Source of the DNA: an archaeon
GTDB taxonomy: Archaea; Asgardarchaeota; Thorarchaeia; Thorarchaeales; Thorarchaeaceae
NCBI GenBank assembly: GCA_024275415.1
Contig: JAJRZD010000113.1
Coordinates: 1 to 10,337, forward strand
DNA: 10,337 nt
Direction of reading: 5' to 3'
The translations under genes were made by a program, and so were the position numbers. Positions 1 to 10,337 of the stretch are shown one piece after another. Each line of letters begins with the position of its first letter. The stretch's first letter is position 1. The notes under the pieces are model-generated. The model saw only the letters and a list, made by a program, of their open reading frames with translations, had not been told where the DNA came from and ran no database searches.

Positions 1-345
1 ATGCTGGGCACAGACACCAACATGAGATTGGAACTCATGTCGATGCTGAACCCGGATAAGTATCTCGAGTTCATATCGAGCAAGGGCATCCTTCACAAGA
101 TGGTAAAACGTGCGATCAAGCGTGGAGGAGGGCCATACACGATTGGTCTACAGAACTCGATCTATATGAAAAAAGCATACCCCGAACGACGAAAGCAGAT
201 GAAAGATGCAAAGTCAAGGTTGGATCCTAACAATATAATGAATCATGACAGAGTGACAAGTTGTATGACATCATTTGGAAGGATCAATATCCTATTCGGA
301 CTTGCGGTTGCCTTCAGAAGGCTTGCCAAACATGTTACGAGGTGA
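1..345 (+). CDS. C-terminal fragment (5'-truncated by window) of a VAO/PCMH-family FAD-linked oxidoreductase, GlcD-like (flavoprotein 1)
   Basis: GGGPYTIGLQN and KSRLDPNNIMN align with the C-termini of the two full-length paralogs in this window (GGKPYAVGLWN...LDPKDLLNP; NGRAYSIGMWN...TDPKNIVNP). DPxxxxN is the typical C-terminal motif of FAD-linked oxidases. The ATG at 1 is probably an internal Met. Confidence 0.8.
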   Translation: MLGTDTNMRLELMSMLNPDKYLEFISSKGILHKMVKRAIKRGGGPYTIGLQNSIYMKKAYPERRKQMKDAKSRLDPNNIMNHDRVTSCMTSFGRINILFGLAVAFRRLAKHVTR

Positions 346-350
346 TAGTG

Positions 351-1478
351 ATGAAAGTCGACTTACCCATGGACATACTCCGCGCTTGCGGTTCATGTAA
401 TTATTGTAGGGACTTCTGTCCGATGTACAGAGAGATTGGCTCAGAGCTTGATAGCCCGGGTGGAAAGCTTCGAGCCCTACGGGCATACGCTGAGAAGATG
501 TACTCAAAACCTCCTCAAGAGTTGCTAGACAAGCTTTTCTGTGCAGATTGCAGAAGATGTGAAAATATCTGTCCGGCCGGAGTGCCTGTCACTTCATACT
601 GGCATGATGCGAAGGCAACTCTGCTAAAGACAGGGGGAACGAGATCAGAGGGCCTTGAGAAAGTCCTTGATTGGTTGCAAAAGGAGGGCACCCCCTTTGT
701 CGGATACGAGGCTGAAGAACGCACCTTGTGGGCTGAAGACCTTGAACTCCCAGCAGAGTCAAACACTGCTATATTCTCGGGTTGCATGGGTTCCTACTGG
801 TACCCAGACCAACCAGAGATGGTCGTAGACATGATGCGGAAGTTGAAGATCAAGGTAGGATACATCCCTAGCGAGGTGTGTTGTGGGCTGATGAATTACT
901 GGGCTGGGGACGACACTGGGTTCGAGTCCATCATCAGGAAGAACTATGAAATGTTCAAGAAAGCAGGCGTAGACCATATCATAACCGGATGTGGGGGGTG
1001 CTATGGCACCCTTGCTGAGCATTATCCACATGTCATAAAGAACTTTGACATTCAGATTCATCATACAGTGGAAGTATTGGCCGATATGGTCGAGAATGGT
1101 GTGCTGACATTCAAGGGACTAGAAGGCCGATACACATTCCATGATTCATGTCACCTAGGGCGAGCCCTAGGCATCTATGACGCACCAAGAGAGATCATAG
1201 CTGCGATTCCGGATCTTGAATTCGTTGAGATGCAGAACAATCGCGAGGACTCCAACTGCTGTGGGGGTTTTGTAACGGTTGTGGATCCTGACCTCTCAGA
1301 ATCCATCGGTAAGAAACGAGTCCAAGAAGCACTAGAAACGGGAGCAGACGGCCTGATCACAACATGTGTGTCATGCTACAAGAACCTCAGCTATTGTGCC
1401 AGAGGCACAGATCTTGAGGTGATTCAACTCGACGAGTTGATTCTGAACTTAGCACAATCTTCGTTGGTAGAAGAATAG
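351..1478 (+). CDS. HdrD/GlcF-like Fe-S oxidoreductase (2x[4Fe-4S] ferredoxin motifs plus two CCG domains), Fe-S protein 1, 375 aa
   Basis: CGSCNYCRDFCP and CADCRRCENICP; CCG domains FSGC..VCCG..TGCGGC and HDSCHLGR..NCCG..TTCVSC. Start moved from 261 to ATG 351 because AGGTGAT at 340-346 is an archaeal-type RBS and the 261 start would overlap the upstream gene by 85 nt. Confidence 0.9.
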   Translation: MKVDLPMDILRACGSCNYCRDFCPMYREIGSELDSPGGKLRALRAYAEKMYSKPPQELLDKLFCADCRRCENICPAGVPVTSYWHDAKATLLKTGGTRSEGLEKVLDWLQKEGTPFVGYEAEERTLWAEDLELPAESNTAIFSGCMGSYWYPDQPEMVVDMMRKLKIKVGYIPSEVCCGLMNYWAGDDTGFESIIRKNYEMFKKAGVDHIITGCGGCYGTLAEHYPHVIKNFDIQIHHTVEVLADMVENGVLTFKGLEGRYTFHDSCHLGRALGIYDAPREIIAAIPDLEFVEMQNNREDSNCCGGFVTVVDPDLSESIGKKRVQEALETGADGLITTCVSCYKNLSYCARGTDLEVIQLDELILNLAQSSLVEE

Positions 1479-1497
1479 AAAACTAGAGGAACGAAAA

Positions 1498-2823
1498 ATG
1501 AACGACAAAAAAGGAACGCGGGTTGTCATTGTCGGAGCAGGTATCGCGGGATTCTCATGTGCCCTTGAACTGAAAGGTCTGAAAGCGCGATGTCAGATCC
1601 TTGAGAAGGAGCCAACCGTTGGCGGAAGAGCAAGGTCTTTCACGGAGTCAGGATATGTCTTTGATCAGGGTCTGCACTTCTTCGTTGGCGGCTTCAAATC
1701 GCTCATCCCCATTCTTGAGAGAAGCGGTGTCAGAATGACAACTGTTGGGGAAGGTGCAGTATGGCTCAAAGGTGGCGCGCGTCACATAATGAAGCAATCG
1801 GCATTAGACCTTGTGAAGTTCAGCCTTCTCAGCCCCGGGGACAGAGTGAGCCTCGGCAATGCGGTCAGGAAGAACCTTGGCAGGAGCATGGAGGACTTCA
1901 TGGAGCTTGACAAGATGACATTTGCAGAGTATGCAGAAGACAACGTATCGGAAAGCATCATGGAGAATTTCTATGAACCGTTGATACGTTCTGTGACTTT
2001 CATGACTCCCGAAGAGGTATCTGCAGGTCAGTACCTTTACTCGGAGCAATTGAGATTCGCATACGAAGATGGGTTCAAAGCCATGTATCCTGAACGAGGA
2101 GGCCTTGGAAGTGTGCCATACACACTCATGCTTCAGGCACGAAACTTTGCCATTGAACCAAAGGTGAACTGCGATGTTCAGAAGATTATAATTGAGGACG
2201 GCAGGGTCAAAGGTGTGGAGTTCATTCAGGATGACAAGGAACAGTATGCAGAGGCAAATGCAGTGGTTGTTACCACACCAATTGACCTCCTACCGAACTT
2301 CATTGACATGAACCTTCTTCCTAGCGAGTTCTCGAACGCTACCAAGCAATTCAGCTACAGACCTTCAATTGTCGCCTACTTTGGGCTGAGCTCAAGAGTG
2401 CTAGACTTTAATGTTGGAGGTTTCGTGCCCGGAAAGAAAATCCACATCGTTGCAGAAGCAAAGAGAGTGTCAGGGGTTCTTGCACCAATAGGTGAGTCCC
2501 TGCTCACAGTGACCTCAATTGATACAGAGCTTCTGAAGATGGAAAATGGCGAAGCATTGGGTGTGATCCTAGATGAGCTGAAAGAGCTGATTCCGGGAAT
2601 CGAAGACAAAATCACATGGCAGAAGTGTTGGAAGATATGGCGCTCGGTTCTTGCACAACCACCAGGCATCATGGAGCAGCGACTCAAGACCAATAAGACA
2701 GGAATAGAAGGTCTCTATGTAGCAGGCTCGTTTGCCAATTGTGACAATTACTATGCTTCGATGGAAGCTGCGGCAAGGTCTGGAATAGCATGTGCTCAAG
2801 AGATGACCCACGATTTCTCGTGA
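1498..2823 (+). CDS. FAD-dependent oxidoreductase of the amine oxidase / phytoene desaturase (PDS/ZDS/HpnE-like) family, 441 aa
   Basis: Rossmann motif IVGAGIAG, LEKEPTVGGRARS, FDQGLHFFVG, FYEPLIRSVTFMTPEEVSA, and C-terminal GLYVAGS...YASMEAAARSG. RBS GAGGA at 1486-1490. Confidence 0.85.
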   Translation: MNDKKGTRVVIVGAGIAGFSCALELKGLKARCQILEKEPTVGGRARSFTESGYVFDQGLHFFVGGFKSLIPILERSGVRMTTVGEGAVWLKGGARHIMKQSALDLVKFSLLSPGDRVSLGNAVRKNLGRSMEDFMELDKMTFAEYAEDNVSESIMENFYEPLIRSVTFMTPEEVSAGQYLYSEQLRFAYEDGFKAMYPERGGLGSVPYTLMLQARNFAIEPKVNCDVQKIIIEDGRVKGVEFIQDDKEQYAEANAVVVTTPIDLLPNFIDMNLLPSEFSNATKQFSYRPSIVAYFGLSSRVLDFNVGGFVPGKKIHIVAEAKRVSGVLAPIGESLLTVTSIDTELLKMENGEALGVILDELKELIPGIEDKITWQKCWKIWRSVLAQPPGIMEQRLKTNKTGIEGLYVAGSFANCDNYYASMEAAARSGIACAQEMTHDFS

Positions 2824-2839
2824 GCACGAAACACCCTCC

Positions 2840-2874
2840 TGTGCCAGTAGTGCAAGTCGTTTACTACTGGCACA
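2840..2874. repeat. Perfect 12-bp inverted repeat with 11-nt spacer (hairpin); possible terminator, RNA-processing element or operator
   Basis: TGTGCCAGTAGT (2840-2851) and its exact reverse complement ACTACTGGCACA (2863-2874), followed by CTTTTG at 2879-2884. The repeat is certain; the function is not. Confidence 0.75.
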
Positions 2875-2913
2875 CAGGCTTTTGCGCCGGTAGGCGGTCA
2901 TCGAGGTCAGACA

Positions 2914-4110
2914 ATGACACGATTGGATGTGATTGAAGAATCGGGACACGGGGATGATCCGTACATCTGCGCGTCCTGTGGCAATTGTACCATGGTCTGC
3001 CCGACGTTCAGGCTGGGAAAATGGGAGTCCTTCGGCCCCAGAGGTCGCCTACAGGTGACAAAGAATATACTAGAAGGAAAAGCCAAATTCGATGAGGAAT
3101 ATGTCAGAAAGCTCTTCATGTGTTCATTATGTGAAAACTGTGCCTCAGTATGCACGACCAGCCTGAAACTTGACGAGTTCTGGCGGGAAGCACGCGCCCA
3201 AGCATGGGAGATGGGAATGGCCCCGAAACCTGCAAAATACGCTAGCAGTTCTATCATGCGATATGGTGACCCACTTGCGATGGGCTCGTCGTCAAGACTA
3301 CGGTGGGCTCAAGACTTTGAGATCGACATAACAGACAGGATAGAAGCCAATGCAAAGGTGGGTTATATCCTCGGTTGCGATGTGGCACTGAAGCCCCAGC
3401 TCAACGATATTGCCCGTTCAATGGTAAAGATTCTCGAACACGCAGGAGTAGAATATACCCTGCTTGGAGAAAAAGAAACCTGTTGCGGAGCTCCCATGCT
3501 TTGGGCGGGGAACAAGTCCGAAGTCCATCTTATTGCGGAGAAGAACTATCTTCTGCTTGAAGAACTTGGTGTGGAAAAGGTCATCTTCAGCTGTCCTTCG
3601 TGCATCTACATATGGCATATAGTCGGTTCTACGACTCCACACAAGAGAGGGAACTCGCCACTCAAACTGTACACATCCTCCCAGTTCATCAGCATACTCG
3701 ATAAGAACGGATTACTTGCATACAGAGAGCAGCCGATGATCACAGTGACCTATCATGACCCATGTATCTCAGCACGCAGGCTTGGGATCTATCATCAGCC
3801 ACGAGACCTTATTGAACACATCCCAGGGGTCTACAAAGTTGAGATGGCATATTCTGGAACAGAAACAAGGTGTTGTGGATGGCACGGATTGCTGAACCTT
3901 ACCAATCCTCTCGTTTCACTGGAGATTGCCGAGATGCGGATGAGAGACGTTTCCGTAACACCAGCCTCACGGGTGATAAGCGAATGTCCCAGGTGTATCC
4001 AAGCACTTGATACGGCAGGTCAGACCATGCAATACGAGCTGAAAGTTCAAGATATCACACAGCTGGTGGCGGAATGTCTTGTAGAACCCGAAAAGGATGG
4101 AGGTTCATAA
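2914..4110 (+). CDS. HdrD/GlcF-like Fe-S oxidoreductase (2x[4Fe-4S] plus two CCG domains), Fe-S protein 2, 398 aa
   Basis: CASCGNCTMVCP, GPRGRL, CSLCENCASVC; CCG domains LGC..TCCG..SCPSC and HDPC..RCCG..ECPRC. RBS GAGGT at 2903-2907. Confidence 0.9.
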   Translation: MTRLDVIEESGHGDDPYICASCGNCTMVCPTFRLGKWESFGPRGRLQVTKNILEGKAKFDEEYVRKLFMCSLCENCASVCTTSLKLDEFWREARAQAWEMGMAPKPAKYASSSIMRYGDPLAMGSSSRLRWAQDFEIDITDRIEANAKVGYILGCDVALKPQLNDIARSMVKILEHAGVEYTLLGEKETCCGAPMLWAGNKSEVHLIAEKNYLLLEELGVEKVIFSCPSCIYIWHIVGSTTPHKRGNSPLKLYTSSQFISILDKNGLLAYREQPMITVTYHDPCISARRLGIYHQPRDLIEHIPGVYKVEMAYSGTETRCCGWHGLLNLTNPLVSLEIAEMRMRDVSVTPASRVISECPRCIQALDTAGQTMQYELKVQDITQLVAECLVEPEKDGGS

Positions 4111-5816
4111 TGGTGAAGATACAACGAATCGAGGACTTGGTAGGTGCAGATAACGTTTCAACATTGGATGAGACCCTTGGTCTATACTCCCGCGATATTG
4201 CTGCATTGCCAGGACTGGCATTCCAGATTATCGATAACCAGTTTGATGTAGTCGCTCAGCCACAGACTGTTAGATCGTTGTCCAATTTGATCCGTTATGC
4301 GCACGAGCACAATATCCCAATCGTCCCTCGTGGTAGTGGAACATCAGGATGGGGAGGTGCATTGCCTACTCGTGTAGGCATCTGCATAAGCACTCTCCAT
4401 CTGTCAAACTTGGTACATATTGATGAGAACAAGATGCTGGTAACGGTGGAGGCAGGAATGACATGGAAGGAACTCCTCATGGTTCTTGAACAGATAGGCT
4501 TCACGCTTCCGGTATATCCATCAAGTGCAGCAGCAGCAACAATCGGTGGGTTTGTTGCAAGCGGGGGATTGGGAATAGGATCAGCAAAGTATGGTGACAT
4601 CCGTGAACAAGTAGCCGGTCTTGAAGCAGTGCTACCAAACGGGATGATCGTGAGAACTGGGAATTTCCTAATAAAAGAGGATGACAACGAAACCGAGGAC
4701 GGTGAGTCCGCTGGTGCATATTTGCTCTCAATCCTTGACCAAATTCCTGAAGAGTGCCGTCCAGAGCCTATCGACCTGTTCCTTGGACTATACGGTACGT
4801 TCGGTGTCGTTTCACGTGTCACCTTACGTATGGTACCTAAGTTGATCCTACAACCCTTTGCATGCGTATTTGACAATGTCAATGATCTCACATCTGCAAT
4901 ACGCGATATCCAAGACATGGCCCGACCGTATTACCTCCGGTTCATCTCTAATTCATACACTATAAAGCGGTTTACTCCTAGAAGCTCTATCGACGAGTAC
5001 GGCAAGTTCATTCTCATTGGTGCGTTGTTGGACACATACTTCCAAATCGAGGAAGACGAGCAGGCTATCAAGGACATCGTAAAAGCACACAATGGATGGA
5101 CAACACAACAGAAACGGGCAGAGTACCTGTGGGATGAACGACTGTATCCTCTAAGAATAAAGACCCTTGGTCCCAGCTTAGTCCCAGCAGAACTCCTGAT
5201 CGATGTAGAGCACATCCCGGAACTTTATGAGAATGTCCTCTCACACATCAGTACCGACTCGATCGCAATTGAAGGGACGGTTGGAAGAAATGGTACCACT
5301 TCATTCCTAGCGTGGATCCTAGATGACGAACGCAAGAAATTCCGATATACACTAGGTTGGCACAGGTCGTTTGATATCACGAATCTAGGAATCAAACATG
5401 GTGGAAAACCATATGCTGTCGGATTATGGAATGTAATTCACGCACCACACTATTATGGAAGACAGCACTACAACGCATTAAGAAGGATAAAGCGTCTACT
5501 GGATCCAAAAGACCTGTTAAATCCAATGAAAGTGTTTGGAGGAAGGGTCAATGCGAAAAAAGAATCACTTGTATTCGGTTTCACCAGTGGCTTAATTGTT
5601 GGTGCTCTTGTCCATTACGCTCTCTCAAGCACCTTAGGCACTGGCTACCTATGGTCAATATTGGGACTGCCTCATCTGGGCTTTCAACTCGGCCTATTTG
5701 TGGCGATTATTGGAGGGTTGGTTGGATTGATGTTCATCAAGTTCCTTACAATAAAGAACGCCCTCAGACTGGGCATACCCATATTGCATGTACTCCGTAC
5801 GTTTCTTAGAAAGTAG
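4110..5816 (+). CDS. VAO/PCMH-family FAD-binding oxidoreductase (GlcD-like) with C-terminal two-helix membrane anchor, flavoprotein 2, 568 aa
   Basis: PRGSGTSGWGG, VTVEAG, PSSAAAATIGGFVASGGLG..KYG, GLYGTFGVVS, DPKDLLNP, then two hydrophobic segments. Start moved from 4074 to ATG 4110, which has a TAATG stop/start overlap and RBS GGAGGT at 4099-4104. Confidence 0.9.
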   Translation: MVKIQRIEDLVGADNVSTLDETLGLYSRDIAALPGLAFQIIDNQFDVVAQPQTVRSLSNLIRYAHEHNIPIVPRGSGTSGWGGALPTRVGICISTLHLSNLVHIDENKMLVTVEAGMTWKELLMVLEQIGFTLPVYPSSAAAATIGGFVASGGLGIGSAKYGDIREQVAGLEAVLPNGMIVRTGNFLIKEDDNETEDGESAGAYLLSILDQIPEECRPEPIDLFLGLYGTFGVVSRVTLRMVPKLILQPFACVFDNVNDLTSAIRDIQDMARPYYLRFISNSYTIKRFTPRSSIDEYGKFILIGALLDTYFQIEEDEQAIKDIVKAHNGWTTQQKRAEYLWDERLYPLRIKTLGPSLVPAELLIDVEHIPELYENVLSHISTDSIAIEGTVGRNGTTSFLAWILDDERKKFRYTLGWHRSFDITNLGIKHGGKPYAVGLWNVIHAPHYYGRQHYNALRRIKRLLDPKDLLNPMKVFGGRVNAKKESLVFGFTSGLIVGALVHYALSSTLGTGYLWSILGLPHLGFQLGLFVAIIGGLVGLMFIKFLTIKNALRLGIPILHVLRTFLRK

Positions 5817-5843
5817 AGTTACAAAATTGTGAACCAATACACT

Positions 5844-5934
5844 CAAATATCGCACCTAGATTCCAATGCGAAACCAAGAGGTGTTATCCCTACAAATATC
5901 GCAGGGGTAATATAATTTACAAATACATAGGGGT
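5844..5934 (+). promoter_or_regulatory. Putative promoter/operator region with direct repeats and an AT-rich TATA-like element
   Basis: Largest intergenic gap in the window (5817-5941). CAAATATCGCA occurs at 5844-5854 and 5893-5903; TACAAATA..AGGGGT occurs at 5891-5908 and 5918-5934. TAATATAA at 5908-5915 lies about 27-34 nt upstream of GTG 5942. Confidence 0.45.
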
Positions 5935-5941
5935 TCCGACT

Positions 5942-6553
5942 GTGAAAACAAAGCTCGTCAAGAAAATGTTACTTGTAACTTGCTTTCTCGTAATAATTAC
6001 CGCTGGTGCAAGCTTTGTACTTGCATTTCCAGACCAAACCAACGAATGTGATCAGTGTCATACGAACACGGACGTATTGCTACTAACTTCTAATGCCACA
6101 TCTACAGTGAATACGAAAGTAGGTGTATCATTTATTCTTGTTCTTGATGGCTCCAATGGAGTCGAGCATTTGAAGATCGTGAGCGACTGGGCAAATAACA
6201 GCCAGTTCACATTCTCAGTCATGGATGTCGATGACAATGGGGCTGATGATACAGATACAGCGACTGGAGAGATTACTGTCGCAGTGAATGTGACACCCTT
6301 AGCAGTAGGTAGTTTCACCATTAAGGTATGGGTCGCTGCGGCATCACAGCTTTCTGCAAGTACAGAAGTTTCAGTGAATGTCGAAGAGAATACAGACACC
6401 ACATTCACAACTCCAACAACTCCGACAACTCCGACAACTCCAACTGAGAACCCACTCGAAGCATGGACTTTTTACATGTACGTCATAAATGCAGGAGTTG
6501 CAATCGCGCTCTTAATAATCGGAGCTGTTATTTGTAAGAGGACAAGGAGGTAG
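5942..6553 (+). CDS. Exported, C-terminally membrane-anchored protein with a single CxxCH heme-c attachment motif (putative monoheme c-type cytochrome), 203 aa
   Basis: Basic n-region plus hydrophobic signal peptide ending FVLA; CDQCH at residues 36-40 (nt 6047-6061); beta-strand-rich acidic ectodomain; (TTP)4 linker; hydrophobic C-terminal helix followed by KRTRR. GTG start; ATG 5966 is an alternative. Confidence 0.75.
   Translation: MKTKLVKKMLLVTCFLVIITAGASFVLAFPDQTNECDQCHTNTDVLLLTSNATSTVNTKVGVSFILVLDGSNGVEHLKIVSDWANNSQFTFSVMDVDDNGADDTDTATGEITVAVNVTPLAVGSFTIKVWVAAASQLSASTEVSVNVEENTDTTFTTPTTPTTPTTPTENPLEAWTFYMYVINAGVAIALLIIGAVICKRTRR
6407..6442 (+). repeat. In-frame tandem repeat, 4 x 9 bp ACAACTCCR, encoding (Thr-Thr-Pro)4
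   Basis: ACAACTCCA ACAACTCCG ACAACTCCG ACAACTCCA read directly from the sequence. Confidence 0.95.
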
Positions 6554-6563
6554 GTGATAAGAA

Positions 6564-7061
6564 ATGGCACTTCATCCGGTATTCATTCACTTTCACACAG
6601 GCATTTTAGCAGCAAATGCAGCTCTTGCATTAGTATGTCTACTATTTAGACTGGTCTTTCGGGATGCAATAAACACCCCCGGAACAAAGATGGCAAAAAT
6701 ATTCCATGAATTCGATATCTTCATCTTCTGGGGTAATATTATCGGGTTCCTAGGATTGATTGCAGGAATGCTCACTGGCTTTATGGATTGGCCAATTGAG
6801 GCTGTACTAGCCAGTGCATATATGCGATCCAAGATACTATTCTCAGCAGTGGCTTTGCAAGTCTATATGTTTCTGATTCTTGTAAGGGTAAAGATTGGGG
6901 ATCGTATATGGACATCAACATCAGGGTTCCTGATTTACGGTATCTTGATTATAATTGGTGGCGGACTCATGATAGTGATTGCAGCAATGGGTGGAATAGC
7001 AGTCTACGGAACTTCGATCCTTAAGCCAATACTTGATTGGGTCGGAATGCCATGGCCATAA
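6564..7061 (+). CDS. DUF2231-like four-helix integral membrane protein (possible heme b-binding), 165 aa
   Basis: N-terminal HPxxxHF motif, AGMLTGFMDW, terminal AMGGIAVYG and four hydrophobic segments match the DUF2231 pattern as I recall it. RBS AGGTGA at 6552-6557. Confidence 0.7.
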   Translation: MALHPVFIHFHTGILAANAALALVCLLFRLVFRDAINTPGTKMAKIFHEFDIFIFWGNIIGFLGLIAGMLTGFMDWPIEAVLASAYMRSKILFSAVALQVYMFLILVRVKIGDRIWTSTSGFLIYGILIIIGGGLMIVIAAMGGIAVYGTSILKPILDWVGMPWP

Positions 7062-7073
7062 GAGGAGAGAGAG

Positions 7074-8255
7074 ATGGGAACCAAGACATTTGAAAGACTC
7101 AGAGAATCCGCGTTAGATGTGGAGCCCCTTGTCTGTGCAAGATGTGGCTTCTGCACTTTCGTGTGTCCCGCATATAATGACACCCTCTGGGACTCGCAAT
7201 CACCACGTGGTAAGCTATACCAGCTTCGAGAACTCATCTTGAAGAACCAACCAATCCCAGAAGACTTTGCTGAACGAATTTTCAAATGTACGCTCTGTGG
7301 TGCATGTCAAGAAATATGTCAGACGAAAATTCCCCTTCTTACCTTCTGGCAAAAAGTTCGTCAAGAAATCAACGATGCAGGGCTCTGGCCGAAGGTCGTA
7401 CATCTTCTTGATGAATCGATCCAAAGTAGCAAGAATATCATGGATCTTGACCAAGAGGACAGAATGCTCTGGACAGATATGGTCGATGATATTGTAGAAG
7501 ACCGCATTGACAAACCAGCCAAGGTGGCCTATTTTGCAGGATGCAACATATCCTTCAAAGGGACTCTTGCACCGATTGGAGAGAATACGATTAAGGTGTT
7601 TGACCATCTTGGAATCGACTTCACGATATTGGGAGAGGAAGAATATTGCTGTGGGAATCCCTATTTTGTAGGAGGAGAATGGGATAAAGCCAAAGAACTC
7701 GCCATTCATCATCTTAACAAACTCAAAGACCTCGGCGTGAAGACGGTTGTGTTCAACTGTCCGGGATGCCATAGAGCATTCAATGAGGAATACCCGCATA
7801 TGCTAGGGAAGGAGTCCGTCGCGGGTATTGAATTCCTGCCATTCTCCCAGTTCATTGCATGGATGTTGCGAGAAGGGAAACTGAAATTCACCAAGGAGTA
7901 CAACGAGGTAATAGCGTGGCATGACCCATGTGAACTCGGACGACATCAAAACATCTATGATGAAGCCCGCGAGGTATTGAACGCGATTCCGGGGCTAGTT
8001 CTACGCGAGATGAAACATTCGCGCAACAAAGCTGACTGTTGCGGCGGTGGAGGCTTACTAAAAGGCACTAATCCTCTCATGTCAGTCCGTATTTCAGGGC
8101 GTCGAATAGAGGCGACTGAAAAGACTGGAGCAACGATACTTGCGAGTGAATGCCCGTCATGCATGATGTCATTCATGGATGGCATTGAGAACACAGGAAA
8201 AAAGATCAAATTCAAAGATCTTTCACAAATTGTCGTGGAGGCACTAGGATTATAG
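7074..8255 (+). CDS. HdrD/GlcF-like Fe-S oxidoreductase (2x[4Fe-4S] plus two CCG domains), Fe-S protein 3, 393 aa
   Basis: CARCGFCTFVCP, SPRGKL, CTLCGACQEIC; CCG domains FAGC..YCCG..NCPGC and HDPCELGRH..DCCGGGG..ECPSC. RBS GAGGA at 7062-7066. Confidence 0.92.
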   Translation: MGTKTFERLRESALDVEPLVCARCGFCTFVCPAYNDTLWDSQSPRGKLYQLRELILKNQPIPEDFAERIFKCTLCGACQEICQTKIPLLTFWQKVRQEINDAGLWPKVVHLLDESIQSSKNIMDLDQEDRMLWTDMVDDIVEDRIDKPAKVAYFAGCNISFKGTLAPIGENTIKVFDHLGIDFTILGEEEYCCGNPYFVGGEWDKAKELAIHHLNKLKDLGVKTVVFNCPGCHRAFNEEYPHMLGKESVAGIEFLPFSQFIAWMLREGKLKFTKEYNEVIAWHDPCELGRHQNIYDEAREVLNAIPGLVLREMKHSRNKADCCGGGGLLKGTNPLMSVRISGRRIEATEKTGATILASECPSCMMSFMDGIENTGKKIKFKDLSQIVVEALGL

Positions 8256-8265
8256 GGTGGTTACA

Positions 8266-9996
8266 ATGCTGTTAAAGAAGCAGTTACAACAGATTGCAGA
8301 CATCGTAGGTGAAGATTACTTCTCTTCTGAGGAATACATGCGCAAGCTGTATTCACATGACGTAGGTGCTTTGCCGAACCTGGTGAATGATATTCTGAAA
8401 ACACAAGTTGATGCAGTTGCACAACCCACATCACCTGAAGTTGTTTCTAAACTACTCCAATATTGTCTCAAAAACAAGATACCGGTAATACCACGAGGTC
8501 ACGGCACTAGCGGATATGGTGGTGCCCTACCGACCAAGGCAGGCCTTGCAATTGAGATGACCCGTATGAACAAGATCCACAATGTGGATACATCCAATAT
8601 GACCGTCGAGGTCGGCGCAGGTATCATCTGGGGGAATCTCATCGAGGAATTGGAGGATCAGAACCTCACTGTCAGAGCTTATCCATCGAGCGCCCCATCA
8701 AGCACTGTGGGAGGCTGGGTAGCAGCTGGTGGTTCAGGAATCGGAAGTACGAAGTATGGTGGTGTGAGTGACCAGATAGTAGACCTTGAAGTCGTATTGC
8801 CTGATGGCAGGATCATACGCACCAGCTCACCACCTGATGACATCATAGAAGAATTCGTCAAGCAGGAATACAACTATTTCCCAAGTGATGACGAATACAT
8901 ATGGGCAATCAAAGAGGTCGAGAAAGATGATTTTGACTTGACCTCCTTCTTTGTCGATAGTAATGGCACATTAGGTATCATTACAAAAGTCGTGCTCAAG
9001 ATTATTCCATTGCATGCTATCCGCCCGTTCGTCGCATCGTTCAAGACCAAGGAACAGATGATATGGGCAATGCAGGAGATAATGAAAGAAACACGCCCAT
9101 TCTATTTACACTTCATCACAGAAGGGTTCAATCAAATGCTGACTGATGTTGACATGCCAACTCACTCCCAGCACCCATGGGTATTCCTTTGTGCCTTCGA
9201 AGGTTCAAAAGAACAACTCGATAACGAAGAGGCATCATTAAAGAAAATCGTGGATAACAACATGGGAGTCCTTGAACCACAGGAGGTTGCTGAGCATGAG
9301 TGGGATGAACGCTTCTATCCAATGCGCATCAAGCGGTTAGGGCCGAGTCTTGCACCATCAGAGGTATACGTCCCCCTTTCGAACCTTCAGTCATTCATCG
9401 AACGCGTAGACAGACACTTCAAAGGAGAGTCCTTTGCACTTGAAGGTGCAGTCAATAACAAAGGCGAAGTAGCTGTGCTTGCGTGGTTCCTTGACGATGA
9501 GAGAAAAACTATCGCATTTCTCATGGGTTGGTACCGCTCACTCGACTTTATCGAATTAGGTCTGAAAGAGAATGGACGTGCTTACTCCATTGGCATGTGG
9601 AACGTTTCTCATTCACGTTCATTTTTTGGCAAGAAGAAATACGCAAGTATTGCTCAGCTGAAAAAGAAAACAGACCCGAAGAACATAGTTAACCCGAACA
9701 AGGTATTTCCAGGACCAATACAGCTCTCAATGAGATTCAACTACTTGATAATCATAGCTGCGACTATCATCGCTCCAGTCGTACTCTGGCTCGCAGGCCT
9801 CTGGGTAGGTGATATCATGGCTGCTTACGGTCTTGAGTGGTTAGCAGTGACTAATCTCACCAGCGCCCTAGTCGCCATCGGGATAGGTCTATTTGCTGGA
9901 GTAGCTGTTTCGGAAATCGCCAACTATGTCCCAATAAATTTCATGCTCACGATGGGAAGGCCTTTCTTAAGGCTCGGACGTAAGATATTCCATTGA
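8266..9996 (+). CDS. VAO/PCMH-family FAD-binding oxidoreductase (GlcD-like) with C-terminal two-helix membrane anchor, flavoprotein 3, 576 aa
   Basis: PRGHGTSGYGG, VEVGAG, PSSAPSSTVGGWVAAGGSG..KYG, SNGTLGIIT, DPKNIVNP, then two hydrophobic segments; a clear paralog of 4110-5816. ATG 8266 is preferred (GGTGG at 8256-8260 as RBS); GTG 8257 is an alternative. Confidence 0.9.
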   Translation: MLLKKQLQQIADIVGEDYFSSEEYMRKLYSHDVGALPNLVNDILKTQVDAVAQPTSPEVVSKLLQYCLKNKIPVIPRGHGTSGYGGALPTKAGLAIEMTRMNKIHNVDTSNMTVEVGAGIIWGNLIEELEDQNLTVRAYPSSAPSSTVGGWVAAGGSGIGSTKYGGVSDQIVDLEVVLPDGRIIRTSSPPDDIIEEFVKQEYNYFPSDDEYIWAIKEVEKDDFDLTSFFVDSNGTLGIITKVVLKIIPLHAIRPFVASFKTKEQMIWAMQEIMKETRPFYLHFITEGFNQMLTDVDMPTHSQHPWVFLCAFEGSKEQLDNEEASLKKIVDNNMGVLEPQEVAEHEWDERFYPMRIKRLGPSLAPSEVYVPLSNLQSFIERVDRHFKGESFALEGAVNNKGEVAVLAWFLDDERKTIAFLMGWYRSLDFIELGLKENGRAYSIGMWNVSHSRSFFGKKKYASIAQLKKKTDPKNIVNPNKVFPGPIQLSMRFNYLIIIAATIIAPVVLWLAGLWVGDIMAAYGLEWLAVTNLTSALVAIGIGLFAGVAVSEIANYVPINFMLTMGRPFLRLGRKIFH

Positions 9997-10058
9997 GCAG
10001 CCTGACGCTCAAAAAGAGTATGGAAAAATGTCAAACGAGTTGAGACTAGGTGGCACTG

Positions 10059-10337
10059 ATGACAAAACATATAGTTGCAGCTACAAACCTTACTAGAAGG
10101 TACGGCTATCGGGTCGCCCTCAAGAAAGTTTCCTTCGAAATCGCACATGGTGGAATCCATGCACTCTTCGGTGCCAATGGTGCTGGGAAAACCACTCTCA
10201 TGCGGATAATCTCAACTCTACTACGACCTCACGGAGGAACAATCCTAGTATTTAACAAGAATCCACAGACTGATAGTATTACTATTAGAAGAAAGATAGG
10301 ACTGATTGGTGAGAAACCTCTGCTATACAACGAATTG
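10059..10337 (+). CDS. ABC transporter ATP-binding protein, N-terminal 93 aa (3'-truncated), CcmA-like; missing from the supplied ORF track
   Basis: My translation from ATG 10059 is MTKHIVAATNLTRRYGYRVALKKVSFEIAHGGIHALFGANGAGKTTLMRIISTLLRPHGGTILVFNKNPQTDSITIRRKIGLIGEKPLLYNEL. It has Walker A GANGAGKT and RBS AGGTGG at 10048-10053, and the frame is open to the window end. ABC ATPase is secure; the CcmA subtype is tentative. Confidence 0.85.
   Translation, partial: MTKHIVAATNLTRRYGYRVALKKVSFEIAHGGIHALFGANGAGKTTLMRIISTLLRPHGGTILVFNKNPQTDSITIRRKIGLIGEKPLLYNEL

What the first reader, a model, noticed from the sequence alone, without database searches (positions are those of the whole stretch)
1..10337. 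Triplicated flavoprotein + CCG Fe-S module cluster joined to a desaturase-like enzyme, a c-type cytochrome and a membrane protein: candidate undescribed membrane redox system
Seen: three VAO-type flavoprotein/HdrD-like pairs, a PDS-like flavoenzyme, a CxxCH surface protein, a DUF2231-like protein and an ABC ATPase, all co-oriented with gaps mostly under 20 nt. Known: GlcD/GlcF-type and lactate dehydrogenase/HdrD-type pairs pass electrons from a flavin substrate site through Fe-S centres to an acceptor. Inference: three diverged copies suggest three substrates or sequential steps of one pathway feeding a shared membrane/cytochrome c outlet. I know of no described pathway with this composition.
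Basis: partly seen in the sequence, partly recalled or inferred. Interest (0 to 1): 0.8.

Follow-up and report, generated by a model that had tools for sequence, protein, structure and literature searches.

The report
Thorarchaeal flavoprotein/Fe-S/cytochrome c membrane redox cluster
This contig from a Thorarchaeota (Asgard) genome holds a conserved gene block of three unusual flavin/iron-sulfur enzyme pairs, an exported single-haem cytochrome c, a small membrane protein and the cytochrome c maturation genes. It looks built to carry electrons between cytoplasmic metabolism and the cell surface, and I found no paper that describes it.

Summary
The window is a whole contig of a Thorarchaeota MAG and carries ten co-oriented genes:
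- three VAO-type flavoproteins, the first only as its last 114 residues;
- three HdrD-like Fer4+2xCCG proteins;
- a PDS/HpnE-like flavoprotein;
- an exported monohaem cytochrome c with an invariant CxxCH;
- a 4-TM protein with invariant histidines, DUF2231-like only below threshold;
- an ABC ATPase that is CcmA.

The contig joins C38 upstream and C62 downstream. There it sits in a ~50 kb respiratory region with CcmBCDE/F, a heptahaem cytochrome, a complex I-like operon, a MenA-like prenyltransferase and more flavoprotein/CCG pairs.

The gene order is kept in every related locus examined. Genes g3, g5, g7 and CcmE occur in the same 5 of 16 genera of the family.

It is not a standard lactate or glycolate dehydrogenase. 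All three flavoproteins lack the His/His/Glu metal triad and belong to a large unnamed clade with the signature DER...GG[RK]PY.

The closest solved relative of the CCG protein is mycobacterial EtfD. My best reading is a modular electron wire: flavoenzyme, then CCG and [4Fe-4S] clusters, then a membrane module, then outside haem c. Substrate and direction are unknown.

This scan already noted the same system in another Thorarchaeota genome. I rate it a new variant of a known kind.

The parts
1..345 (+). g1: C-terminal 114 aa of flavoprotein 1 (FADox1, type A, no TM tail). Its N-terminal ~380 aa lie on contig C38.
   Evidence: Pfam FAD-oxidase_C E 0.0025. It is 75% identical to the end of the 498-aa FADox1 of L001, and C38 shares a 137-nt identical overlap with the window start.
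351..1478 (+). g2: HdrD-like Fe-S protein 1 (two CX2CX2CX3C motifs plus two CCG domains)
   Evidence: Pfam CCG 119.6 bits and Fer4_8. The motifs were located. All NCBIfam hits are sub-threshold.
1498..2823 (+). g3: PDS/HpnE-like FAD enzyme (amine-oxidase fold)
   Evidence: Pfam Amino_oxidase 116.6 bits. HpnE scores 119.7 bits against a cut-off of 283. The best solved relative is rice phytoene desaturase 5mog, E 9e-14. There is a single copy in the genome.
2840..2883 (+). 13-bp hairpin followed by CUUUUG in the g3-g4 spacer; a possible transcript end or attenuator
   Evidence: MFE -32.5 kcal/mol, z -2.1. Conservation was not tested.
2914..4110 (+). g4: HdrD-like Fe-S protein 2
   Evidence: Pfam CCG 101.6 bits plus Fer4. 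Motifs. Its stop codon overlaps the g5 start by 1 nt.
4110..5816 (+). g5: flavoprotein 2 (type B), with a VAO-type catalytic part and a C-terminal two-helix membrane tail
   Evidence: FAD_binding_4 124 bits. TM segments at about 487-505 and 516-549. The metal triad is absent. Orthologues occur only in 5 of 16 genera.
5844..5941 (+). Spacer before g6 with two copies of CAAATATCGCA (5844, 5893) and an AT-rich box about 30 nt before the start; a likely internal promoter or operator
   Evidence: 2 matches found against 0.17 expected. The motif was not found in the other loci.
5942..6553 (+). g6: exported monohaem cytochrome c with a beta-rich domain, Thr/Pro stalk and C-terminal membrane anchor
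   Evidence: C36, C39 and H40 are invariant in 12 orthologues; one orthologue has CX4CH instead. Hydrophobic N- and C-termini. It is a paralogue of the N-terminal domain of the upstream haem-c::4-TM protein, E 4e-13.
6564..7061 (+). g7: 4-TM membrane protein with invariant H4, H9, H11 and H48 and Trp-rich outer loops; DUF2231-like below threshold
   Evidence: Alignment A5. AF2 model with pLDDT 85 shows a four-helix bundle. Pfam DUF2231 E 0.02-1.1. It is restricted to one Asgard family.
7074..8255 (+). g8: HdrD-like Fe-S protein 3
   Evidence: Pfam CCG 115.7 bits plus Fer4_8. Motifs. The best solved relative is EtfD 9ojn_A, E 2.5e-30. Full-length sub-threshold hits to TmcB and HmcF.
8257..9996 (+). 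g9: flavoprotein 3 (type B) with a C-terminal two-helix membrane tail. The database gene call is 576 aa, which implies a start at 8266.
   Evidence: FAD_binding_4 137 bits. TM segments at about 490-526 and 528-556. The triad is absent. More than 100 Thorarchaeota orthologues.
10050..10337 (+). g10: N-terminal 96 aa of CcmA (cytochrome c maturation ABC ATPase); it continues on contig C62
   Evidence: ABC_tran. The window end and the start of C62 share a 141-nt identical overlap. CcmB, CcmC, a 44-aa ORF and CcmE follow in L001 and C62. The orthologue scores 119.5 bits on TIGR01189 against a cut-off of 131.6.

Best explanation
The window is the core of an accessory respiratory gene block of Thorarchaeia. 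It encodes modular 'flavoenzyme to cell surface' electron wires.

Each module pairs a cytoplasmic VAO-type flavoprotein with an HdrD-like protein. The flavoproteins belong to an unnamed clade that lacks the 2-hydroxyacid metal site. Two of the three are tethered to the membrane by a C-terminal helical hairpin. The HdrD-like protein carries two CCG-type clusters and two [4Fe-4S] clusters.

By analogy with EtfD and HdrDE, I propose this route. Electrons taken from an organic substrate at the FAD pass to the CCG clusters, then along the two cubane clusters to a small histidine-bearing membrane protein. In the window that protein is g7; just upstream it is the 4-TM domain of the haem-c fusion protein. 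From there the electrons reach an exported monohaem cytochrome c (g6), or a prenylated membrane carrier, and go on to the anchored heptahaem cytochrome encoded nearby.

The ccm genes that follow g9 mature these cytochromes. The PDS-like flavoprotein g3 is a fourth input or carrier-linked enzyme of the same block.

Shown here: domain content, cofactor motifs, membrane segments, conserved gene order, co-distribution with Ccm, and absence of the hydroxyacid triad.

Inferred: physical assembly, haem in g7, the order of electron carriers, the outward direction, and the substrates.
For: **Parts and motifs**
- Both ferredoxin motifs and both CCG motifs are complete in g2, g4 and g8.
- CxxCH is invariant in g6.
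- g7 has four invariant His and models as a confident 4-helix membrane bundle.
- g5 and g9 have TM tails.

**Conserved order**
- The order FADox1-CCG-PDS-CCG-FADox-cyt c-4TM-CCG-FADox holds in L001, L002, L003, L021, L022 and closed genome G320.
- The order g5-g6-g7-g8-g9 holds in 11 further loci.

**Co-distribution with cytochrome c maturation**
- g3, g5, g7 and CcmE occur in the same 5 genera and in none of the other 11.
- Inside one genus they are present or absent together.
- The MenA-like gene, by contrast, is in 15 of 16 genera.

**Few other cytochromes**
- The genome's only ORF with three or more CxxCH motifs is a heptahaem protein on C62.
- Only three proteins carry the exported haem motif near the N-terminus: g6, the upstream protein and one on C97.
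- The Ccm genes next door therefore have few other clients.

**Repeated theme**
- The gene just upstream of FADox1 fuses a g6-like haem domain (invariant CX4CH) to a 4-TM domain with four invariant His.
- That 4-TM domain also exists as a free gene beside another flavoprotein/CCG pair.

**Recurrence outside Thorarchaeota**
- The closest relative outside the g9 and g5 clusters (P0121, 44% identity, TM tail; organism not identified) lies near a CCG protein and a protein that hits DUF2231 plus a weak cytochrome b5 domain.

**Precedent for the wire**
- g8's best solved relative is EtfD 9ojn, E 2.5e-30.
- In EtfD the proposed path is FAD of ETF, then CCG clusters, then two [4Fe-4S], then haem b, then menaquinone (PMC13083937).
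Against: - No experiment or expression data bears on this.
- g7 has no significant fold or family match, and its histidines do not form an obvious bis-His pair pattern.
- g6 has no conserved second axial ligand.
- No NarI/HdrE-type cytochrome b is present.
- Pair 2 (g4/g5) has no membrane module of its own.
- Relatives of these flavoprotein/CCG pairs in other archaea sit beside UbiA, polyprenyl synthase, GGR, UbiE or UbiD genes without any cytochrome. The ancestral acceptor may therefore be a membrane carrier, or the pairs may have a biosynthetic role.
- Substrate and direction of flow are unknown.
Confidence: 0.55

Rival explanations
1. Biosynthesis or tailoring of a prenylated membrane carrier or membrane lipid. 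In this reading the membrane-tethered VAO-type flavoproteins and the PDS/HpnE-like enzyme oxidise or desaturate a lipophilic intermediate. The HdrD-like proteins only remove the electrons, and the cytochrome genes are neighbours that use the product.
For: - g3 is closest to enzymes acting on long isoprenoids: HpnE and plant PDS 5mog.
- The genome has a MenA-like prenyltransferase over the TIGR00751 cut-off, a polyprenyl synthase and a GGR-like gene in the same region.
- No MqnA/D or MqnC was found, and no MenB above cut-off, so the head-group pathway is unknown.
- Relatives of the flavoprotein sit beside GGR/UbiA/polyprenyl synthase/UbiE (L028, L030) or UbiD/4HBT (L026) in other archaeal contigs.
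Against: - The window's genes track CcmE, not the MenA-like gene. The MenA-like gene is present in 15 of 16 genera, the block in only 5.
- An exported cytochrome c and a membrane protein are embedded between the pairs with 10-12 nt gaps.
- Three full HdrD-type four-cluster proteins are more than a biosynthetic step needs.
Confidence: 0.15
2. Inward electron flow, as in the Tmc/Hmc/DsrMKJOP complexes of sulfate reducers. Electrons from an outside donor, or from a syntrophic partner, enter through the surface cytochromes. They cross the membrane through g7-type modules and are used by the HdrD-like proteins and flavoproteins to reduce a cytoplasmic disulfide or organic acceptor.
For: - The parts are the same as in the best explanation.
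- g8 gives full-length, sub-threshold matches to TmcB (98.7 bits), HmcF (81.9) and DsrK.
- The CCG motifs are complete, as in disulfide-reducing HdrB/HdrD.
- From my own knowledge of the literature, Tmc and Hmc work in this direction.
Against: - No candidate disulfide carrier (DsrC, lipoyl protein, CoM/CoB synthesis) was seen in the block.
- Each CCG protein is paired with a dehydrogenase-type flavoprotein.
- In EtfD, the closest solved relative, the CCG clusters are the entry point from a flavin rather than a disulfide site.
Confidence: 0.15
3. Ordinary paralogues of D-lactate, glycolate or 2-hydroxyacid dehydrogenase (GlcD/GlcF, Dld/HdrD type). They would reduce a quinone on their own, and the cytochrome c, the 4-TM gene and the ccm genes would be unrelated neighbours.
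For: The best named hits are GlcD, LDHD, LctD and GlcF/GlpC/LdhH. The genome holds 13 such pairs, most of them away from cytochromes.
Against: - The His/His/Glu triad seen in LDHD and LctD is replaced in all three flavoproteins.
- It is also absent from the best 149 representatives of the clade.
- Scores are 134-162 bits against the GlcD cut-off of 568.
- g6/g7 are fixed between the pairs in every locus examined.
- The block co-varies with CcmE.
Confidence: 0.1

Closest known systems
Mycobacterial EtfD (PDB 9ojn; PMC13083937) and the related HdrDE of Methanosarcina
   Same: It has two [4Fe-4S] motifs plus two CCG domains. g8 matches 9ojn_A at E 2.5e-30 over residues 68-376. It accepts electrons from a flavoprotein and passes them to a membrane haem part.
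   Different: EtfD carries its own five-helix haem b domain, and its donor is ETF. Here the CCG protein is soluble and the donor is a VAO-type flavoprotein encoded next to it. The candidate membrane parts (g7, the flavoprotein tails) are unrelated to NarI/HdrE, and an exported haem c is added.
TmcABCD, HmcABCDEF and DsrMKJOP transmembrane complexes of sulfate reducers (composition from my own knowledge of the literature)
   Same: The logic is the same: an outside c-type cytochrome, a membrane subunit and a cytoplasmic HdrD-like CCG protein. g8 aligns full-length with the TmcB and HmcF models.
   Different: All scores are far below the equivalog cut-offs (98.7 against 735; 81.9 against 750). 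There is no NarI-type cytochrome b. The cytochrome has one haem rather than many. A dedicated flavoenzyme is attached. The host is an Asgard archaeon.
GlcDEF glycolate oxidase, Dld-II/LdhAB D-lactate dehydrogenase and YdiJ D-2-hydroxyglutarate dehydrogenase
   Same: A FAD_binding_4 flavoprotein is paired or fused with a Fer4+CCG protein. Many relatives of g9 are 860-1030 aa fusions of this kind.
   Different: The catalytic His/His/Glu metal site is absent and replaced by the clade signature DER...GG[RK]PY. The flavoproteins have membrane tails, and the block is linked to cytochrome c.
p-Cresol methylhydroxylase (flavocytochrome c; PDB 1dii/1wve)
   Same: A VAO-family flavoprotein hands electrons to a c-type cytochrome subunit. 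It appears among the PDB hits, E about 4e-11.
   Different: PCMH is a soluble periplasmic heterotetramer with direct flavin-to-haem transfer. Here the flavoprotein is cytoplasmic and the haem c is outside, so Fe-S and membrane parts must lie between them.

Membership tests
D-2-hydroxyacid dehydrogenases of the VAO family (LDHD, LctD, GlcD, D2HGDH) | FAD_binding_4 plus FAD-oxidase_C domains | tested here: met
   g5 scores 124 and 36.8 bits; g9 scores 137.4 and 40.8 bits.
D-2-hydroxyacid dehydrogenases of the VAO family (LDHD, LctD, GlcD, D2HGDH) | Metal-binding His/His/Glu motifs (H-x-G-D-G-N-x-H and G-E-H-G-I-G, as in chains 8jdc and 7qh2) | tested here: not met
   The aligned stretches are EGAVNNKGEV / GRAYSIG in g9, EGTVGRNGTT / GKPYAVG in g5, and GHGSMMRLE / GGPYTIG in the L001 FADox1 orthologue (LGTDTNMRLE / GGPYTIG in the window's own g1). 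Only one of the 13 paralogues, on C73, keeps the motifs.
D-2-hydroxyacid dehydrogenases of the VAO family (LDHD, LctD, GlcD, D2HGDH) | Score over the curated equivalog cut-off (GlcD TIGR00387, 567.9 bits) | tested here: not met
   134.1 bits for g5 and 162.4 bits for g9.
HdrD/EtfD-type CCG iron-sulfur proteins | Two CX2CX2CX3C ferredoxin motifs and two CXnCCGXmCXXC motifs | tested here: met
   All are present in g2, g4 and g8.
HdrD/EtfD-type CCG iron-sulfur proteins | A haem b membrane partner or domain (HdrE; the EtfD N-terminal domain) | tested here: inconclusive
   There is no TM segment in g2, g4 or g8. The adjacent g7 is a 4-TM His-bearing protein of another family, and its haem binding is unknown.
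HdrD/EtfD-type CCG iron-sulfur proteins | Equivalog-level match to a named member (TfrB, LdhH, GlpC, GlcF, TmcB, HmcF, DsrK) | tested here: not met
   All are below cut-off; for example g8 scores 169 against 800 for LdhH and 98.7 against 735 for TmcB.
c-type cytochrome (g6) | A conserved CXXCH haem attachment motif | tested here: met
   C36, C39 and H40 are invariant in 12 orthologues; one orthologue (L018) has CX4CH.
c-type cytochrome (g6) | Export to the outer face, and a maturation system in the genome | tested here: met
   There is an N-terminal hydrophobic segment before the motif, judged by hydropathy only. CcmA-E and a CcmF-like gene are adjacent. CcmE is over the Pfam cut-off on C62.
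c-type cytochrome (g6) | Covalently bound haem | not testable with these tools
   This needs haem staining or mass spectrometry.
DUF2231 (PF09990) (g7) | Score over the Pfam gathering threshold (26.4 bits) | tested here: not met
   9.8 to 15.2 bits in three orthologues, although nearly the whole profile is covered. The Atlas feature search gave DUF2231 clusters at 0.86.
Phytoene desaturase / HpnE / CrtI family (g3) | Amine-oxidase fold with an N-terminal FAD-binding motif | tested here: met
   Amino_oxidase 116.6 bits, full length; NAD_binding_8 50.1 bits.
Phytoene desaturase / HpnE / CrtI family (g3) | Equivalog-level match (HpnE 283 bits, PDS 569 bits) | tested here: not met
   119.7 bits and 63.9 bits.
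Tmc/Hmc/DsrMKJOP-type transmembrane complexes | A NarI/HdrE-type dihaem cytochrome b subunit | tested here: not met
   No such domain is present in the window or in the flanking genes scanned.
System I cytochrome c maturation (g10 = CcmA) | An ABC ATPase directly followed by CcmB, CcmC, CcmD and CcmE | tested here: met
   The 141-nt identical join to C62 and the synteny in L001, L020 and L022 show this. The only NCBIfam hits of the next genes are CcmB, CcmC (plus a weaker CcsB hit) and CcmE, all sub-threshold. The CcmA orthologue scores 119.5 against 131.6.

The most novel reading that the evidence does not exclude
Some Thorarchaeia (Asgard archaea) have a self-contained respiratory add-on that wires cytoplasmic flavoenzymes of an uncharacterised VAO clade to the cell surface. 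The route runs through HdrD-like Fe-S proteins, new small haem-type membrane modules and exported cytochromes c. It would let them dump electrons on outside acceptors or on a syntrophic partner. That is a concrete molecular route for the electron export assumed in syntrophy models of eukaryote origin.
Probability: 0.3. Interest if true: 0.8.

Novelty: new variant of a known kind. Interest (0 to 1): 0.62.

Why it matters
Asgard archaea are usually modelled as fermenters or acetogens that export reducing power as H2 or formate. This conserved block, gained or lost as a unit, contains cytochrome c maturation genes, surface cytochromes and three flavoprotein/Fe-S input modules. It would mean that part of the Thorarchaeia can respire or exchange electrons directly across the membrane.

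The block also flags three groups of uncharacterised proteins whose chemistry is open:
- a large unnamed clade of VAO-type flavoproteins (328 representative clusters at E<=1e-30) that has lost the hydroxyacid metal site and is habitually paired or fused with HdrD-like domains;
- a 4-TM membrane family with DUF2231 likeness (g7);
- a second 4-TM, four-His membrane family (the p125/up type).

The genes are compact and could be expressed for cofactor and substrate tests.

Tried and rejected
- **Co-folding of g6 with g7** (complex prediction): no verdict. The median score was 0.31 against the mark of 0.32 and the controls were not run. It counts neither for nor against binding.
- **Public sequencing runs** for window 5800-9000: none was listed, so there is no expression evidence either way.
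- **Fold searches.** The g7 model and the p125-type 4-TM model gave no match at E<=0.001. Only weak likeness appeared, to cytochrome b561, CcsBA/CcmC, STEAP and COX3-type helix bundles, and I do not use it as evidence.
- **hhalign of g7 against the p125/up 4-TM family**: probability 1%, so they are not detectably related.
- **Pfam and NCBIfam** gave nothing for g7, the upstream 406-aa protein or p125 at normal thresholds.
- **tRNA and Rfam scans** of the window found nothing.
- **Literature searches** found no description of this block. The terms were DUF2231; Thorarchaeota + cytochrome c + HdrD; Asgard + multiheme; HdrD + FAD-linked oxidase; Asgard + cytochrome c maturation. Only open-access papers and preprints are held in that library.
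- **Cluster names** for relatives of g9 were only generic.
- **The CAAATATCGCA repeat** upstream of g6 is not found in the orthologous loci.
- **Horizontal-transfer signal by composition:** none. Window GC is 0.466 against 0.470 for the genome.

Full report
**What is in the window**

The 10,337-base window is a complete contig (C99) of a 3.5-Mb, 127-contig Thorarchaeota MAG that is 92.9% complete. Ten genes lie on the + strand:
- g1 (1-345): the last 114 residues of a FAD-linked oxidase.
- g2 (351-1478): a Fer4 + 2xCCG protein.
- g3 (1498-2823): an amine-oxidase-fold flavoprotein.
- g4 (2914-4110): a Fer4 + 2xCCG protein.
- g5 (4110-5816): a FAD_binding_4 / FAD-oxidase_C protein.
- g6 (5942-6553): a small protein with CDQCH.
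- g7 (6564-7061): a 4-TM protein.
- g8 (7074-8255): a Fer4 + 2xCCG protein.
- g9 (8257-9996): a FAD_binding_4 / FAD-oxidase_C protein.
- g10 (10050-10337): the start of an ABC ATPase.

The gaps are 5, 19, 90, -1, 125, 10, 12, 1 and 53 nt. No tRNA or Rfam family is present.

**The contig is part of a larger region**

The end of contig C38 and the start of the window share 137 identical bases. C38 carries the missing N-terminal part of g1's protein. The window end and the start of C62 share 141 identical bases. C62 holds the following, in order:
- the rest of CcmA, then CcmB, CcmC, a CcmD-sized ORF and CcmE;
- an FMN reductase and a CcmF/NrfE-like haem lyase;
- a heptahaem cytochrome with a C-terminal anchor;
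- a complex I-like operon whose NuoB is fused to a further FAD oxidase, plus an HdrD-like gene;
- a MenA-like prenyltransferase (TIGR00751, 113 bits against a cut-off of 102), a polyprenyl synthase and a GGR-like gene;
- two more FAD oxidases, a 125-aa 4-TM protein and a fourth CCG protein.

In the closed genome G320 the same genes are colinear on one chromosome. So g10 is CcmA, not a transporter of the redox system.

**The gene just upstream of the window**

The 406-aa gene on C38 just before FADox1 matters for the reading. It has four parts:
- an N-terminal hydrophobic segment;
- a domain homologous to g6 (BLASTP E 4e-13), with an invariant CX4CH where g6 has CX2CH;
- a further beta-rich domain;
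- a C-terminal 4-TM domain with four invariant histidines.

This 4-TM domain is 31-35% identical to the free 125/135-aa protein that lies beside FADox4/CCG4. The theme 'outside haem c + small His-bearing membrane module + flavoprotein + CCG protein' therefore occurs at least twice. It is fused upstream of pair 1, and split as g6 and g7 in front of pair 3. g7 belongs to a different membrane family from that 4-TM domain (hhalign probability 1%).

**Conservation**

Orthologues of g9 are abundant and almost all are labelled Thorarchaeota. The order FADox1-CCG-PDS-like-CCG-FADox-cyt c-4TM-CCG-FADox is the same in L001, L002, L003, L021, L022 and G320. The order g5-g6-g7-g8-g9 holds in 11 further loci.

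Among 400 Asgard genomes, g7 is confined to one family, apart from one weak hit elsewhere. Within that family (86 genomes, 16 genera) the counts for the five genera g1, g3, g6, g11 and g12 are:

| Gene | g1 | g3 | g6 | g11 | g12 | Other 11 genera |
|---|---|---|---|---|---|---|
| g3 | 6/6 | 1/1 | 3/3 | 19/28 | 12/17 | none |
| g5 | 6/6 | 1/1 | 2/3 | 18/28 | 10/17 | none |
| g7 | 6/6 | 1/1 | 2/3 | 16/28 | 9/17 | none |
| CcmE | 4/6 | 1/1 | 2/3 | 18/28 | 12/17 | none |

In genus g11, nine genomes, some 97-99% complete, lack g3, g5, g7 and CcmE. The MenA-like gene is in 15 of 16 genera. So the window's block plus the Ccm genes behaves as an accessory unit added to a more widespread complex I / prenyltransferase core. 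Related genomes are not independent, so I give counts and make no statistical claim.

**The flavoproteins are not ordinary lactate or glycolate dehydrogenases**

The nearest solved structures are mouse LDHD, LctD, glycolate oxidase and alkyl-DHAP synthase, mainly through the FAD-binding domain. In the cap domain, LDHD and LctD carry H-x-G-D-G-N-x-H and G-E-H-G-I-G. The window proteins carry instead:
- g9: EGAVNNKGEV and GRAYSIG;
- g5: EGTVGRNGTT and GKPYAVG;
- FADox1: GHGSMMRLE in the L001 orthologue (LGTDTNMRLE in the window's own g1) and GGPYTIG.

The spacing to the C-terminal DP..NP motif is preserved. Of the 13 FAD-oxidase paralogues in the genome, only the one on C73 keeps the canonical motifs. 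The one on C11 has an SHQHGVG stretch.

A search of 1.84 billion representatives with g9 gave 328 clusters at E<=1e-30. None of the best 149 has the canonical Glu-His motif, and most share F-x-x-D-E-R ... G-G-[RK]-P-Y-[SG]. Many are 860-1030 aa fusions with Fer4 and CCG motifs. Source names are only generic. NCBIfam GlcD scores are 134-162 bits against a cut-off of 568.

I therefore do not file these proteins as 2-hydroxyacid dehydrogenases. They form an uncharacterised sister clade that is habitually coupled to HdrD-like modules. g5 and g9 add two C-terminal TM helices.

**The CCG proteins**

g2, g4 and g8 each have both ferredoxin motifs and both complete CCG motifs and no TM segment. By sequence, g8's best solved relative is mycobacterial EtfD (9ojn_A, E 2.5e-30). 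HdrB and HdrC are far weaker.

The EtfD structure paper describes CCG-bound clusters D1 and D2, two [4Fe-4S] clusters, a haem b and a menaquinone site within electron-transfer distance. It proposes flow from the FAD of ETF through these cofactors to menaquinone (PMC13083937). This is the best available template for how a flavoprotein, a CCG protein and a membrane redox part can work together.

**The outlet**

g6 has an invariant C36-x-x-C39-H40 a few residues after its N-terminal hydrophobic segment. It also has a conserved N-glycosylation-like NAT site, a Thr/Pro stalk and a C-terminal anchor with a basic tail. One orthologue has CX4CH. No second conserved His or Met is present.

g7 is 64-72% identical among 14 orthologues, with invariant H4, H9, H11, H48 and several Arg, Trp and Tyr residues. 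AlphaFold2 gives a confident four-helix bundle (pLDDT 85). By the positive-inside rule, which is my inference, H4/H9/H11 and the DWP and PWP motifs face outward and H48 faces the cytoplasm. Pfam's DUF2231 covers almost its whole length but only at E 0.02-1.1. Fold searches gave nothing significant.

One piece of independent support comes from P0121, the closest relative outside the g9 and g5 clusters (44% identity, with a TM tail; its organism was not identified). It lies on a contig beside a CCG protein and near a 229-aa protein that hits DUF2231 plus a weak cytochrome b5 domain. The triad of haem domain, DUF2231-type membrane protein and flavoprotein/CCG pair therefore recurs with a different haem domain.

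The genome has very few other cytochromes c. The adjacent Ccm system mainly serves proteins of this region.

**Best-supported mechanism (confidence 0.55)**

- A cytoplasmic substrate is oxidised at the FAD of g9, and likewise at g5 and FADox1.
- Electrons enter the CCG clusters of the partner protein and run along its two cubane clusters.
- They reach a membrane module: g7 for pair 3, and the 4-TM domain of the upstream fusion for pair 1.
- From there they reduce the outside haem c, the heptahaem cytochrome or a prenylated carrier.

Shown: the parts, the motifs, the conserved order and the co-distribution. Inferred: assembly, haem in g7, carrier order, direction and substrates. g3 is closest to HpnE and plant PDS and is single-copy and block-specific. 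It may be a fourth input enzyme or may act on the carrier's isoprenoid chain.

**Rivals**

(a) Biosynthesis or tailoring of a prenylated carrier or lipid (0.15).
- For: g3's family; the MenA-like gene without any Mqn or Men head-group pathway; relatives of the flavoprotein beside GGR/UbiA/polyprenyl synthase/UbiE or UbiD/4HBT in other archaeal contigs.
- Against: the block tracks CcmE rather than MenA.

(b) The same hardware run inward, as in Tmc/Hmc/Dsr (0.15).

(c) Ordinary hydroxyacid dehydrogenases with unrelated neighbours (0.10). The missing triad and the fixed synteny contradict this.

**Novelty**

The design principle is known from EtfD, HdrDE and Tmc/Hmc/DsrMKJOP. Four things are new:
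- the input enzyme, a triad-less VAO clade, partly membrane-tethered;
- the membrane modules, two small families without annotation;
- the monohaem surface cytochrome;
- the host lineage.

I found no paper on it in the held library.

The scan itself had already reported the same cassette array and the haem-c::4-TM protein in another Thorarchaeota genome, and a Lokiarchaeia analogue. Those notes agree with what I derived here independently. One of them supplied the EtfD lead, which I then checked.

What this window adds:
- the direct join of the block to the ccm operon;
- the genus-level co-distribution with CcmE, as opposed to the MenA-like gene;
- the clade signature of the flavoproteins;
- the DUF2231/cytochrome b5 recurrence near the relative P0121.

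Verdict: real, conserved and mechanistically interpretable. It is a new variant of a known kind. Interest 0.62.

Noticed in passing
window 2840-2883: There is a 13-bp perfect hairpin followed by CUUUUG in the 90-nt g3-g4 spacer (MFE -32.5 kcal/mol, z -2.1). It may end or attenuate the first transcription unit.
   Followed up: partly
window 5844-5854 and 5893-5903: CAAATATCGCA occurs twice, 49 nt apart, in the 125-nt spacer before g6 (0.17 expected), followed by an AT-rich box about 30 nt before the start. It may be an operator and promoter. It was not found in the orthologous loci.
   Followed up: partly
G000 C38:83670-84890 (L006:11671-12891): A 406-aa protein lies just upstream of FADox1. 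It has an exported g6-like domain with invariant CX4CH, an extra beta-rich domain, and a 4-TM domain with four invariant His that also exists as a free 125-aa gene (L005:15847-16224).
   Followed up: partly
G000 C62:30561-31604 (L005:10558-11604, - strand): A MenA-like prenyltransferase scores over the TIGR00751 cut-off and is present in 15 of 16 genera of the family. This 92.9%-complete genome nevertheless shows no MqnA/D or MqnC, and no MenB above cut-off. What it prenylates is unknown.
   Followed up: partly
G000 C62:9799-11220 (L004, - strand): This is a 473-aa cytochrome with seven CxxCH motifs, no CxxCK, weak c554/c552 (NrfA-like) hits and a C-terminal membrane anchor. It is the only ORF with three or more CxxCH motifs in the genome.
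   Followed up: partly
G000 whole genome: The genome has 13 FAD_binding_4 paralogues and 13 HdrD-like proteins, almost all as adjacent pairs, plus 3 HdrB-like proteins. Only the C73 flavoprotein keeps the canonical hydroxyacid His/His/Glu motifs. The C11 copy has an SHQHGVG stretch that, from memory, recalls the HHH loop of alkyl-DHAP synthase.
   Followed up: partly
G000 C97:36637-38961 (- strand): A 774-aa surface protein starts with the same exported haem motif as g6 (YPSYTSECGGCH; 50% identical to g6 over 127 aa). It is followed by long beta-rich repeats, a poly-Thr stalk and a C-terminal anchor.
   Followed up: no
L028 and L030 (contigs of P0137 and P0129): In other archaeal contigs, a flavoprotein/CCG pair of the same clade sits directly beside GGR-like, UbiA, polyprenyl synthase and (in L028) UbiE-like genes. 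In L026 a relative sits beside UbiD and a 4HBT thioesterase. This is a recurrent link to prenylated-carrier genes.
   Followed up: partly
G354:C112:1471-3168: The g5 orthologue of one related genome carries one in-frame TAA. It could be a pseudogene or a sequencing error.
   Followed up: no
G000 C62:3345-5000 and C62:7112-9307: Two large unannotated genes are embedded among the ccm genes. One is a 551-aa protein with a weak Adaptin_N/HEAT-like hit. The other is a 731-aa protein with weak six-hairpin glycosidase-like hits, conserved next to CcmF in L001 and L022.
   Followed up: no
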